Assembly: GCA_000004695.1 (NCBI GenBank) | Contig: CM000151.3 | Span: 1,440,001-1,504,000, forward strand | Source of the DNA: Dictyostelium discoideum | Lineage: Eukaryota | Length of the DNA stretch: 64,000 nt | Direction of reading: 5' to 3' | Shown: piece by piece, positions 2,939 through 5,914 of the stretch | Layout of the letters: each line of letters opens with the position of its first letter | Position numbering within the stretch: the first letter of the stretch is position 1 | The notes under the pieces: generated by a model | Database searches by the model: none | What the model was told of the DNA's origin: nothing | Seen by the model: only the letters and a program-made list of their open reading frames with translations | Program-made: the position numbers and the translations under genes

Positions 2939-5914
2939 ATGAATATTTCCCTTTTATTAAACAATAGAAATAGAAATAGAAATAATAATAATAATAATAA
3001 TAATAATAATAATAATAATAATAATAATAATAATAATAATAATAATAATAATAATAATAATAATAATAATAATAATAATAACAATAATAATAATAGTAAT
3101 AATGGTAATGCCAATGAAAGCGCTAGTTTAAATAATGGTAGTGAAGAGATTCGATCTAATCCATCATCTAATTTTTCATCACCCATCCAATCATCATTGT
3201 CCTCATCATCTTCATCATTGTCTAGCAACCAAGCAACAACACCAAAAAAGAGATCACACGCACATAAAAATTCACTAAAATGTCAATCTCCACAAATGTC
3301 ACCACAAATGTCTCCACAAATGTCGCCACAAATGTCACCACCATTACAATATTTTCCACAACACCAAATGCAACATCTTAGTCAATATCAACTCGATCAC
3401 CTTCAACAACAACAACAATTAATTCAACAAGAACAACAAGAAAAACAACAACAACAACAACAACACCAACACCAACAACAACAACAAGAACAACAAAAAC
3501 AACAACAAAAACAACAACAAAGATTATCTCCTCAACCAAGATCCTCACAACCAAGATCATCTCCACCAAGATCATCTCCACAAAGATCACCACAATTAAA
3601 CCAACAAGAAGGACACATAAATAGTGTCCAAACCTATAGTGGTAATAATATCAATGATAAAAATCAAAACAACACCAATAATAATAATAATAATATGAGT
3701 AATAATAATAACTTCCATGATGATAATAATTGTAATGTAAATTACAATAACATTAGAAATAATAGCAATAACAATAACAATAACAATACTAATAATAATA
3801 ATAATAATAATAATAATAATAATAATAATAATAATAATAATAATAATAATATTAATAATAATAATAATAATAATAATAATAGTAACAATAATAATTGGAA
3901 TAACAATTATTGTAACAATTCTTTTGCCGACGAAACTAACAAAAATAATACTTATGGAATGGAATATATTAACATTTCAGAAGAAAACCAATATAACAAT
4001 AATAATAATAATAATAATAGTAATAATAATAATAATTATAATAATTATAATAATTATAATAATAATAATAATAATAATAATAATAATAATAATAGTAATA
4101 ATAGTAATAGTAATAATAATAATAATAATAATAATAATAATAATAATAATAATAATAATAATAGAAACAATATTATTAATAGCAATATTAACAATAGCAA
4201 TAATAATAATTATAATGACAATGGATATAACAATAATAGTAATATAAATAGTAATGATAGCTATAACAATAATAATAATAATAATAATAATTTTAATAAT
4301 AATAATTTTAATAATAATAATAATAATAATAATAATAATAATAATAATAATAATAATAATAATAATAATAATAAGAATAATAATAATAGTAATAGTTATA
4401 ATAATAATAATAATAATTATAATAATAATAATAATAATTTCCACAATAATAACAACAATAGCGCCCACAACAATAACAATAACAATTATAATAATAATAA
4501 TAATAATAACTATTATAATAGCAATAACAACAATAATTTCCACAATAATAATAATAATAATAATAATAATGGAAATAATTTTAATAATAATAATAATAAT
4601 AATGGCAATAATGGTAATATGTTTACCAATGTAAATAGTATAGATAATGTAAATAGAAACAACTATAATAATTATAACGGTAATAATAATTATAATGGTA
4701 ATAATTCAAATAATAATAATAATTCAAATAATGAAGTTTCACAAATTACTACAACATCACTACCAGTTAAGAAAACAAAAGTTTTCAAAGCACCAAGGGA
4801 AAAGAAATTCAAAAGAGGACCAGATCAAGATATTAGAGAGATTAAACCAGCCACTGCTTTGTTAAAGCAATATTTTATTGGAAATAGTATCACTGAATTC
4901 AATGCTGAGAGAGTTGGTTCAATTTTAAAGATTAACCATGAAAAGTTAAAAGATATCCTTGACATTATGGAATGTGCTAGTTTGGTAATCAATAACCATA
5001 GTAATAATTATGTTTGGTTAGGTCTTGATAATCCAGGTTTCCTCAAATTGGTTTTCAATGTTTTCCACTGTTCTTCTAATCTTGTCACTAAAGAACCCGA
5101 ATTTGCTTGTTTAAAATGTAAAGAAAACGCCTATAGATGTCCGACCTCTGTTGATTTACCAAAAGATACAAGATTAGGTTCAACTGTTTGTCAATTTATG
5201 AAATTATTATTATCAAAAAGAATTAGAACTAATCCAGTAAATGTAAAGTATTTTTTTTTTTTTTTTTTTTTTTTTTTTTTAATTAAACTTTTGTATTAAT
5301 TTTTTTTTTTTTGAAAATTATAGGATTTCTTAACAATCTATCAAGTTTGCTTTAATTTTAATTTCTGCTCAGAAGGTAGATGCCCAGAAGAAGATTTCAA
5401 GTATCTTAGAAATACTGCTAAAGTAAAGAGATGTTATGATGTTGCCAACGTATTCAATGGTTTAAATATTTTAGAAAAAGTTGGTAAATCTAAAATACAC
5501 TCTTATCAATGGTGTGGTGATTTTACAATTCAAGATTGTGAAAATGGTTGCCCATTTGGTCATCCATTACTTACACCAGGAACTGCATATACAACAAATC
5601 CTTCACCCAATCCATTCAATCAATTTAGCAATGCATATATCTCTTCATCTGCTCAATCTTCTTTATCAAACTCTCCATTCATTCAAGGTGGTTTCCATGG
5701 TAACAACAATAATAGTAATAATAACAATATCAATGGAAATAATATCAATGGAAATAATAACTATGGCTATAATAATAATAATAATTATAATAACTACAAT
5801 AGTAACAATAGCAATGGCTTTAATAACGGAAATTCTTTTTTCCAACAACAACAACCCTTGGTTAATAGCGGTGTTTCCATGGTGAGAAATAATAACTATA
5901 GCTATTCTCCATAA
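2939..5914 (+). CDS. Atypical E2F (E2F7/8/DEL-like) transcription factor with two E2F/DP winged-helix domains and very long poly-Asn/poly-Gln tracts. Two exons: 2939..5236 (or 5242) and 5324..5914.
   Basis: The first winged-helix domain is ...KRGPDQDIREIKPATALLKQYF...LKINHEKLKDILDIMECASLVINNHSNNYVWLG. The second domain spans the intron: PKDTRLGSTVCQFMKLLL...RNTAKVKRCYDVANVFNGLNILEKVGKSKIHSYQWCG, which fits the RRxYD..NVL..L.LI.K...W.G pattern. Candidate donors are GTAAAT at 5237 or GTAAAG at 5243, and the acceptor is tag at 5321-5323. Exon 2 has no internal Met and ends TAA at 5912-5914. Confidence 0.6.

What the first reader, a model, noticed from the sequence alone, without database searches (positions are those of the whole stretch)
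2939..5914. Atypical two-domain E2F with extreme homopolymer expansion
The conserved part holds two tandem E2F/DP winged-helix modules. The second is interrupted by an 87-nt intron, which is the E2F7/E2F8/DEL arrangement. These are repressor-type cell-cycle E2Fs that bind DNA without DP. More than 600 residues upstream are almost pure Asn and Gln, plus repeats of SPQM and SPQPRS.
Basis: partly seen in the sequence, partly recalled or inferred. Interest (0 to 1): 0.5.

Follow-up and report, generated by a model that had tools for sequence, protein, structure and literature searches.

The report
Divergent two-domain E2F gene, Dictyostelium
This is a real, already catalogued Dictyostelium discoideum gene for a very diverged E2F7/E2F8/DEL-type transcription factor whose first DNA-binding module has lost the family's DNA-reading motif; the long asparagine tracts are ordinary for this organism.

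Summary
ATG 2939, an 87-nt intron at 5237-5323 and stop 5912-5914 give a 962-aa protein. It has about 600 low-complexity N-terminal residues, a 230-aa core and an N-rich tail.

The window is D. discoideum AX4 chromosome 2. The gene is very probably DDB_G0272264, already listed as an E2F/DP-family factor "unique to Ddis" (Forbes 2019).

The core holds two tandem E2F/DP winged helices:
- Pfam scores module 2 above cut-off (32.9 bits). Module 1 alone scores 17.5 bits, below cut-off.
- A profile-profile alignment to typical E2F7/8/DEL proteins is collinear over both modules (97.9%, E 3e-13).
- No dimerisation, DP or Rb-binding element is present.

So the architecture is that of an atypical E2F. 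Two evolutionary surveys had not credited D. discoideum with this subfamily.

It is a degenerate variant. The RRxYD recognition motif is EKLKD in module 1 and KRCYD in module 2. A dictyostelid-specific His/Cys linker joins the modules. Repressor and cell-cycle roles are untested. The poly-Asn is normal for this species. Interest is modest.

The parts
2939..5236 (+). Exon 1 (766 codons): start codon, N-terminal low-complexity region, winged-helix module 1, linker, and the first part of module 2.
   Evidence: The ORF is open from ATG 2939. An in-frame TAA lies 9 nt upstream. The N-terminal peptide MNISLLLNN resembles MDITLILNN of the relative P0001.
5237..5323 (+). Intron of 87 nt, phase 0, GTAAAT...TATAG. 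The alternative in-frame donor at 5243 would add Val-Asn.
   Evidence: 8% GC against about 30% in the exons. Both donors are in frame. The relative P0001 has an intron at the same codon position with the donor aag|GTAAAT and no two extra residues, which favours donor 5237.
5324..5914 (+). Exon 2: the rest of module 2, a Cys/His cluster, the Ser/Asn-rich tail, and stop TAA 5912-5914.
   Evidence: Translation.
2939..4732 (+). N-terminal low-complexity region, residues 1-598. It contains (AAT)41 at 2981-3103, SPQM x4 at 3290-3341, a CAA/poly-Q tract at 3404-3520, SPxRS repeats at 3514-3589 and an Asn-rich array at 3677-4603.
   Evidence: TRF. Composition is 52.5% N, 8.5% Q and 9.9% S. There are three full CDK-consensus sites, TPKK, SPPR and SPQR, plus many SP sites.
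4763..4822 (+). Basic stretch PVKKTKVFKAPREKKFKRGP just before module 1. It resembles a nuclear localisation signal; this is inference.
   Evidence: Read from the sequence.
4841..5017 (+). Winged-helix module 1 (residues 635-693), of the DBD1 type. Its recognition helix is at 4937-4975. EKLKD (4940-4954) stands in place of RRxYD.
   Evidence: Pfam scores it 17.5 bits alone. The DBD1 HMM gives 22.2 bits, against 8.1 for E2F, 1.9 for DBD2 and 1.0 for DP. The maximum over 500 shuffles is 10.2. hhalign column mapping. AF2 gives H-strand-H-H-strand-strand with pLDDT 86-96.
5018..5170 (+). Inter-module linker (residues 694-744). It carries the dictyostelid-specific motif FH[SC]xxN-x(6-7)-EFxCxxC, with His710, Cys724 and Cys727.
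   Evidence: The motif is present here and in P0001-P0005. It is absent from P0006-P0020 and from DfasDEL. The region is predicted with pLDDT 85-92.
5171..5512 (+). Winged-helix module 2 (residues 745-829), of the DBD2 type, split by the intron. KRCYD (5426-5440) stands in place of RRxYD.
   Evidence: Pfam scores it 32.9 bits alone. The DBD2 HMM gives 26.0 bits, against 20.6, 20.3 and 16.8 for the others. The maximum over shuffles is 4.6. phmmer aligns it to E2F8 residues 191-223.
5513..5563 (+). Cys/His cluster after module 2: CGDFTIQDCENGCPFGH. A Cys at the matching position is seen in four relatives that carry the linker motif (P0001, P0002, P0004, P0005).
   Evidence: Alignment and regex. 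A metal site is a conjecture only.
5576..5911 (+). C-terminal Ser/Pro/Asn-rich tail (residues 851-962). It has no E2F-type pocket-protein-binding motif.
   Evidence: No EG[IVL]x[DE]L[FY] motif is present. D. discoideum E2F does have EGISELY. No Pfam domain was found.

Best explanation
The region is a two-exon protein-coding gene of Dictyostelium discoideum AX4 chromosome 2, very probably DDB_G0272264. It encodes a 962-aa protein.

The only folded part is a 230-residue core, made of two tandem E2F/DP-type winged-helix modules on one chain. Module 1 descends from DBD1 of the atypical E2Fs (E2F7/E2F8/DEL). Module 2 descends from DBD2. A structured linker peculiar to dictyostelids joins them.

Like E2F8, the two modules are predicted to pack as an intramolecular mimic of the E2F-DP heterodimer. 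The protein would therefore need no DP partner. It has no dimerisation domain and no Rb-binding domain.

Unlike E2F8, module 1 has lost the Arg-Arg-x-Tyr-Asp recognition motif and reads Glu-Lys-Leu-Lys-Asp. Module 2 keeps Lys-Arg-Cys-Tyr-Asp, which is the norm for the dictyostelid clade.

The most likely mechanism is a nuclear DNA-binding regulator in which module 2 reads one GCG-type half-site. Module 1 would serve as a structural partner with unspecific backbone contacts. Specificity would then be altered or weaker than the canonical TTTSGCGC site.

Shown here: the gene model, the two modules, their homology, the absence of other domains, and the motif changes. Inferred: DP independence, DNA binding, nuclear location, and any repressor or cell-cycle role.

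The long Asn, Gln and SP-repeat flanks are species-typical low-complexity sequence kept in frame.
For: Identity of the locus:
- Window 30684-31898 is an exact match to DDB_G0272272 of D. discoideum AX4.
- Forbes 2019 lists only five E2F_TDP genes in D. discoideum. Only one of them, DDB_G0272264, has an id close to DDB_G0272272.

Two modules:
- Pfam.
- phmmer hits E2F8 4YO2 collinearly in both modules.
- All 16 genuine hits among 1.84 billion representatives are two-stretch E2F_TDP proteins. None is a canonical E2F or a DP.
- hhalign of this protein plus P0001 against 10 typical E2F7/8/DEL cores gives 97.9% probability, E 3.2e-13, columns 30-212 against 30-209.
- AF2 gives pLDDT 84.2 and pTM 0.85, with two winged helices.
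- In Foldseek against the PDB, the only hit at E<=1e-3 is 4yo2_A.
- Module-specific HMMs: module 1 scores best with DBD1 (22.2 bits) and module 2 with DBD2 (26.0 bits). Both are far above their shuffles.

Other points:
- No other Pfam domain and no Rb-binding motif.
- The intron position is shared with P0001.
- My decoding of the tab-separated supplement of Forbes 2019 suggests expression with a mid-development peak. Their Table 2 lists the gene as prespore-specific.
Against: - Module 1 alone is below the Pfam cut-off.
- RRxYD, described as invariant and responsible for GCGC contacts (Medina 2016), is absent from module 1.
- The closest relative, P0001, has lost the motif in both modules. This lineage may therefore no longer bind E2F sites at all.
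- No orthologue outside D. discoideum-like strains was recovered, so selective constraint could not be measured.
- The exact protein models are not in the protein collection, so the annotated model could not be compared.
- The assignment to DDB_G0272264 rests on id proximity, not on a sequence match.
Confidence: 0.65

Rival explanations
1. It is a degenerate, neofunctionalised relic. The two-module fold is kept, but sequence-specific E2F-site binding is lost. The protein would then act through protein contacts, or through the low-complexity regions, in development rather than in the cell cycle.
For: - Module 1 has EKLKD instead of RRxYD, and the relative P0001 has lost the motif in both modules.
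- The protein is only 31% identical to its closest relative.
- Forbes 2019 found the pair only in D. discoideum.
- Expression is listed as prespore-specific rather than growth-linked.
Against: - Module 2 keeps KRCYD, which is the standard form in the dictyostelid clade (KRLYD or KRIYD in P0003, P0005, P0008, P0020).
- A basic stretch precedes module 1.
- The fold is predicted with high confidence, which argues for continued constraint on the DNA-binding scaffold.
Confidence: 0.25
2. It is a canonical single-domain E2F or DP protein.
For: On the full-length protein, Pfam reports only one E2F_TDP stretch at E<=0.01.
Against: - No E2F_CC-MB domain, DP domain or Rb-binding motif.
- All relatives are two-module proteins.
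- D. discoideum has separate canonical e2f and tfdp2 genes.
Confidence: 0.02
3. It is a pseudogene or a mis-joined ORF. On this reading the repeat-rich 5' part is not translated together with the E2F core.
For: AAT repeats are open in two of three frames by construction. The exact models are not in the protein collection.
Against: - Zero stops in frame across the non-repeat stretches, against 5-25 in the other frames.
- The frame is kept through many separate repeat blocks.
- The N-terminal peptide is conserved with P0001.
- The context is aaaaaaaaATG with an in-frame stop just upstream.
- RNA-seq-based expression classes are reported for DDB_G0272264.
Confidence: 0.05

Closest known systems
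Human E2F8 / E2F7 (structure 4YO2) and plant DEL1-3 (atypical E2Fs)
   Same: - Two E2F_TDP winged helices on one chain, in the same order (DBD1 then DBD2).
- An extra helix in DBD2.
- No leucine-zipper/marked-box domain, DP domain or pocket-binding domain.
- Collinear profile alignment.
   Different: - About 17-18% identity.
- RRxYD is EKLKD in DBD1 and KRCYD in DBD2.
- The linker is a structured His/Cys-containing segment not seen in typical members.
- About 600 residues of Asn/Gln/SP repeats lie at the N-terminus.
- Repression, APC/C control and cell-cycle expression are not shown.
Dictyostelid group 1/2 'e2f-like' cluster: DfasDEL (DFA_07980), Heterostelium PPL_04042 and PPL_01634, Acytostelium proteins (P0002-P0004, P0008, P0020)
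   Same: - The nearest relatives after P0001.
- Same two-module architecture.
- The linker motif FHSxxN..EFxCxxC is shared with P0002-P0005.
- KRxYD in DBD2.
- Medina 2016 already labels the D. fasciculatum protein a DEL.
   Different: - Most of those proteins keep RRxYE in DBD1 (P0003, P0005, P0008, P0020, DfasDEL). The Acytostelium proteins P0002 and P0004 have TRMYS. Most of them score 56-105 bits on Pfam.
- The D. discoideum protein scores 40-45 bits and has lost the DBD1 motif.
- Forbes 2019 treated the two sets as separate (groups 1 and 2 only, against unique to Ddis). The shared linker motif suggests they form one clade.
P0001 (KAM9979251.1, Dictyostelium cf. discoideum), probably the counterpart of DDB_G0282499
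   Same: - 31% identity over the core.
- Same intron position.
- Same N-terminal peptide and the same linker and Cys motifs.
   Different: - Not syntenic within 10 kb on either side.
- 488 aa, with little poly-Asn.
- RRxYD is lost in both modules.
Canonical D. discoideum E2F (DDB_G0284129) and DP (tfdp2, DDB_G0276799)
   Same: They share the E2F_TDP winged-helix fold.
   Different: - They have a single DBD plus dimerisation and marked-box or DP domains.
- E2F carries the EGISELY pocket-binding motif.
- Module 1 of this protein scores only 8.1 bits (E2F) and 1.0 bits (DP) on those sub-family HMMs.

Membership tests
Pfam E2F_TDP (PF02319) superfamily | Whole-protein score at or above the gathering cut-off of 25.7 bits. 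| tested here: met
   39.9 bits on the full-length protein and 44-45 bits on the core.
Atypical E2F (E2F7/E2F8/DEL) | [quoted passage not shown] | tested here: met
Atypical E2F (E2F7/E2F8/DEL) | The first module is of DBD1 type and the second of DBD2 type (order conserved). | tested here: met
   Module 1 scores: D1 22.2, E2F 8.1, D2 1.9, DP 1.0 bits. Module 2 scores: D2 26.0, D1 20.6, E2F 20.3, DP 16.8 bits. The module 2 margin is small.
Atypical E2F (E2F7/E2F8/DEL) | No DP-dimerisation domain (leucine zipper/marked box), no DP domain, no pocket-protein-binding motif. | tested here: met
   Pfam finds only E2F_TDP. There is no EG[IVL]x[DE]L[FY] motif. The motif check is a simple pattern search only.
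Atypical E2F (E2F7/E2F8/DEL) and E2F/DP in general | The RRxYD DNA-recognition motif on the recognition helix of each DNA-binding domain. Medina 2016, citing Zheng 1999, calls it invariant. | tested here: not met
   Module 1 has EKLKD, with only the Asp kept. Module 2 has KRCYD, with one conservative change that is shared with other dictyostelid members.
Atypical E2F (E2F7/E2F8/DEL) | Binds E2F sites (TTTSGCGC type) without DP and represses E2F targets. | not testable with these tools
   This needs EMSA, SELEX or ChIP and reporter assays. Canonical sites in the window occur at chance level and none lies near the gene.
Canonical E2F1-6 | A single DBD followed by a coiled-coil/marked-box domain, and (E2F1-5) a C-terminal pocket-binding motif. 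| tested here: not met
   There are two DBDs. No E2F_CC-MB hit and no pocket-binding motif were found.
DP | A single DBD plus the DP dimerisation domain. | tested here: not met
   No DP-domain hit. DP HMM scores are the lowest of the four for both modules.

The most novel reading that the evidence does not exclude
Group-4 dictyostelids retain the E2F7/8/DEL lineage only as a fast-evolving, degenerate pair of genes. In this copy the first winged helix has become a non-reading scaffold. A His-x13-Cys-x2-Cys linker, together with a Cys after module 2, forms a metal site that clamps the two modules. This would yield a one-half-site or non-canonical DNA reader, or a decoy, used in prespore differentiation rather than in S-phase control.
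Probability: 0.25. Interest if true: 0.45.

Novelty: new variant of a known kind. Interest (0 to 1): 0.3.

Why it matters
Two surveys of the RB-E2F network found only one E2F and one DP in D. discoideum and no E2F7/8 member (Cao 2010; Medina 2016 source data). A catalogue of dictyostelid transcription factors filed this gene as one of two E2F/DP genes unique to the species.

Recognising it as a diverged two-domain E2F has three consequences:
- It links that orphan pair to the DEL-like genes of other dictyostelids.
- It shows that the atypical branch was not lost in the model species.
- It provides a natural example in which the supposedly invariant RRxYD motif has decayed in one of the two domains.

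This is useful for people who study E2F DNA recognition or the Rb pathway in Dictyostelium cell-type choice. It is a refinement of annotation, not a new principle.

Tried and rejected
- The word-indexed protein search found nothing with the 294-aa core. With a 7-sequence profile it found only one extra Acytostelium protein.
- Exact look-up of both protein models (962 and 964 aa) failed. The annotated model and donor choice could therefore not be read from a database.
- The AlphaFold-DB fold library was not available. The UniProt entry could not be identified through structure.
- Model coordinates are not exposed. The conjectured His/Cys metal site and the DNA-facing surfaces could not be measured.
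- The P0001 locus showed no shared neighbours within 10 kb on either side. I treat P0001 as a paralogue-type relative, not a positional orthologue.
- A search for canonical E2F sites (TTSSCGC) found 2 matches against 1.2 expected. Both lie inside a coding region about 22 kb away. There is no sign of auto-regulation.
- LxCxE (LKCKE) and KEN at residues 725-730 were considered as an Rb-binding motif and an APC/C degron. I rejected them as probable chance. They overlap the structured CxxC motif and are not conserved in relatives.
- The Rfam scan found only two tRNAs.
- No paper in the library mentions DDB_G0272264 or DDB_G0282499 in its main text.
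Full report
**What is in the sequence**

The region lies in very AT-rich DNA, with 8-30% GC. An ATG at 2939 sits in an aaaaaaaaATG context, 9 nt after an in-frame TAA. It opens a frame that runs to 5299.

A second coding block starts at 5324, right after TATAG. It ends at TAA 5912-5914. GT dinucleotides at 5237 and at 5243 are both in frame with that acceptor. They give proteins of 962 or 964 aa.

The 87-nt interval is 8% GC. The flanking exons are about 30% GC.

The coding frame has no stop in the non-repeat stretches. The other two frames carry 5-25 stops there. The frame is also kept through a 927-bp AAT-type array with about 2% indels. The whole ORF, repeats included, therefore behaves as coding sequence.

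**The low-complexity part**

Residues 1-598 are 52.5% Asn, 8.5% Gln and 9.9% Ser. The longest Asn run is 38 residues. SPQM occurs four times, and an SPxRS-type repeat follows a Gln-rich stretch. 'Almost pure Asn and Gln' overstates a 61% share.

Such tracts are the rule in this organism. D. discoideum encodes nearly 10,000 homopolymer tracts longer than 10 residues, mostly N and Q (PMC13093961 abstract). This part of the finding is real but ordinary.

**Where the window comes from**

The ORF at 30684-31898 is an exact match to DDB_G0272272 of D. discoideum AX4, on an 8.48-Mb contig.

Forbes et al. 2019 (PMC6873476) list five E2F_TDP genes in D. discoideum:
- e2f (DDB_G0284129);
- tfdp2 (DDB_G0276799);
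- a tfdp2-related gene (DDB_G0288967);
- 'a set of 2 genes unique to Ddis', DDB_G0282499 and DDB_G0272264.

Only DDB_G0272264 has an id close to DDB_G0272272. That is very probably this gene. This is an inference from id proximity; no sequence match was possible because the exact models are not in the protein collection.

Their Table 2 lists 272264 as prespore-specific. My decoding of the tab positions in their supplement suggests a mid-development peak. That decoding is my own reading.

**Are there two E2F modules?**

Pfam E2F_TDP scores 44-45 bits on the 294-aa core, in two stretches. Module 2 alone scores 32.9 bits, above the 25.7 cut-off. Module 1 alone scores 17.5 bits (E 0.0035), below it. 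On the full-length protein only one stretch passes E<=0.01. This probably explains why the gene has not been filed as a two-domain E2F.

Independent tests settle the point.

(i) phmmer against PDB sequences finds E2F8 (4YO2) best, with both modules matched in order.

(ii) A full HMMER scan of 1.84 billion representatives gives 17 hits. One is a spurious fibronectin repeat protein. The other 16 all have two E2F_TDP stretches, and none is a canonical E2F or DP.

(iii) I compared this protein plus its closest relative against ten typical E2F7/8/DEL cores by profile-profile alignment. The probability is 97.9% and E is 3.2e-13. The alignment is collinear, columns 30-212 against 30-209.

(iv) An AlphaFold2 model of the 228-residue core, built with a 7-sequence alignment, has pLDDT 84.2 and pTM 0.85. 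It shows two helix-strand-helix-helix-strand-strand units joined by a structured linker.

(vi) I built sub-family HMMs from sequences in the Medina 2016 source data:
- Module 1 scores 22.2 bits on DBD1, against 8.1 (E2F), 1.9 (DBD2) and 1.0 (DP).
- Module 2 scores 26.0 bits on DBD2, against 20.6, 20.3 and 16.8.
- Five hundred shuffles reach at most 10.2 and 4.6 bits.

No other Pfam domain is present. There is no counterpart of the EGISELY pocket-binding motif seen in D. discoideum E2F.

The architecture is therefore that of the atypical E2Fs.

**The intron and the donor**

The closest relative is P0001, KAM9979251.1 from 'Dictyostelium cf. discoideum' (31% identity, E 1.6e-22).

P0001 has an intron at the same codon position. 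Its sequence reads ...SNK|GTAAAT...AG|DFL. Here it reads ...TNP|GTAAAT...AG|DFL. P0001 has no two-residue insertion. This favours the donor at 5237, that is the 87-nt intron. RNA-seq is still needed.

The two proteins also share the N-terminal peptide, MNISLLLNN against MDITLILNN. That supports ATG 2939.

The P0001 locus shares no neighbours with the window within 10 kb on either side. P0001 is therefore more likely the counterpart of the second D. discoideum gene than a positional orthologue.

**How it differs from typical members**

Medina et al. 2016 describe RRXYD on the recognition helix as invariant in E2F/DP and responsible for the GCGC contacts. They cite Zheng et al. 1999.

The alignments give these motifs:

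| Protein | DBD1 | DBD2 |
|---|---|---|
| Typical atypical E2Fs | RR(I/V)YD | RRLYD |
| DfasDEL | RRFYE | RRVYD |
| P0003 | RRFYE | KRIYD |
| P0005 | RRIYE | KRLYD |
| P0008, P0020 | RRFYE | KRLYD |
| P0002, P0004 | TRMYS | RRLYD |
| This protein | EKLKD | KRCYD |
| P0001 | ATISN | NSIYN |

Module 2 here is intact by the standard of its clade. Module 1 has lost both arginines and the tyrosine.

A second difference is the linker. The motif FH[SC]xxN-x(6-7)-EFxCxxC occurs here and in P0001-P0005. It does not occur in the typical E2F7/8/DEL proteins, nor in P0008, P0020 or DfasDEL. In four of the relatives that carry it (P0001, P0002, P0004, P0005), a Cys follows module 2 at an aligned position (SSC; GC here).

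The linker is predicted with pLDDT 85-92. A metal site is an attractive conjecture. I could not test it, because model coordinates are not exposed.

The shared linker motif suggests a link that Forbes et al. did not draw. Their 'Ddis-unique pair' and their 'e2f-like cluster unique to groups 1 and 2' probably form one clade.

**Most likely mechanism**

By homology and predicted structure, the two modules should pack like E2F8's, as an intramolecular E2F-DP mimic. This removes the need for DP. It also fits the absence of dimerisation and Rb-binding elements.

Because only module 2 keeps a competent recognition motif, I expect one GCG-type half-site to be read by module 2. Module 1 would act as a structural partner. 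It still offers two lysines on its helix for backbone contacts.

A basic stretch before module 1 looks like a nuclear localisation signal. Three full CDK-consensus sites and many SP sites cluster in residues 100-217. This hints at phospho-regulation.

All of these functional statements are inference. The shown steps are the gene model, the two modules, their sub-family affinities, the missing domains and the motif changes.

The main rival is that specific DNA binding has been lost altogether and the protein works as a scaffold or decoy. The more degenerate P0001 makes this plausible. I give this rival about 0.25.

**Comparison with what is known, and novelty**

Cao et al. 2010 report E2F1-6, DP and RB in D. 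discoideum. They report E2F7/8 only in Monosiga, animals and plants. The Medina 2016 source data contain DfasDEL, but only DdisE2F and DdisDP for D. discoideum.

The gene itself is not new. It is in the AX4 annotation and in the Forbes 2019 catalogue. What I could not find described is threefold:
- its two-domain E2F7/8/DEL-type nature;
- its link to the DEL-like genes of other dictyostelids;
- the decay of RRxYD in its first domain.

No paper in the library mentions the locus tag.

A defining sequence feature of the family is not met in module 1. I therefore file it as a diverged variant by descent, not as a typical functional member.

**Verdict**

The finding is correct in its anatomy. It is over-extended in function. 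It describes an ordinary feature of the species in its headline. Interest is modest (0.3). It corrects a gap in surveys of the RB-E2F network in a model organism, and it offers a natural degenerate-DBD variant for testing E2F DNA recognition. It reveals no new kind of system.

Noticed in passing
window 2523-2559 (+), followed by a T run at 2563-2584: A perfect 13-bp hairpin (GAUUUACUGCUAU / AUAGCAGUAAAUC) with dG -15.8 kcal/mol and z -5.6 against shuffles. A long T run follows 3 nt downstream. It lies about 380 bp upstream of the ATG. It matches no Rfam family.
   Followed up: partly
window 30684-31898 (+): This ORF is an exact match to DDB_G0272272 (Q559Y3), a hypothetical protein of D. discoideum AX4. 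It fixes the window on chromosome 2.
   Followed up: yes
window about 9219-10573 (-): A multi-exon gene whose ORF fragments look like an NDUFA9-type NAD-dependent epimerase/dehydratase-fold subunit of complex I. From memory, unverified, ndufa9 is DDB_G0272266, which would fit the neighbourhood.
   Followed up: no
window 25351-25424 (-) and 52518-52590 (+): tRNA-Phe(GAA) and tRNA-Ile(AAT) genes, found by both ARAGORN and Rfam.
   Followed up: yes
window 27111-27117 (-) and 27496-27502 (+): These are the only two TTSSCGC (E2F-type) sites in the 64 kb. That is chance level (1.2 expected). At least the second (27496) lies inside a minus-strand ORF whose product looked copine/vWA-like by eye; this was not tested.
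   Followed up: partly
window 5111-5128 (residues 725-730): LKCKE (an LxCxE pattern) and KEN overlap the conserved CxxC of the linker. They are not conserved in relatives and lie in a confidently folded segment, so they are probably chance rather than an Rb-binding motif or an APC/C degron.
   Followed up: partly
window 3239-3589 (residues 101-217): A cluster of proline-directed sites: TPKK, SPPR and SPQR (full CDK consensus), plus four SPQM and further SP sites. This is a possible phospho-regulated region.
   Followed up: no
L001 12624-13989 and 17847-19111: The locus of the closest relative, P0001 (Dictyostelium cf. discoideum, JBTAPH010000041.1), is flanked by two DDE-transposase genes. It shares no neighbours with the window.
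   Followed up: partly
window 1-2900: The upstream 2.9 kb is extremely AT-rich (8-23% GC), with long (AAT)n and T runs and no ORF of 120 aa or more. I saw no obvious upstream gene within this stretch.
   Followed up: no
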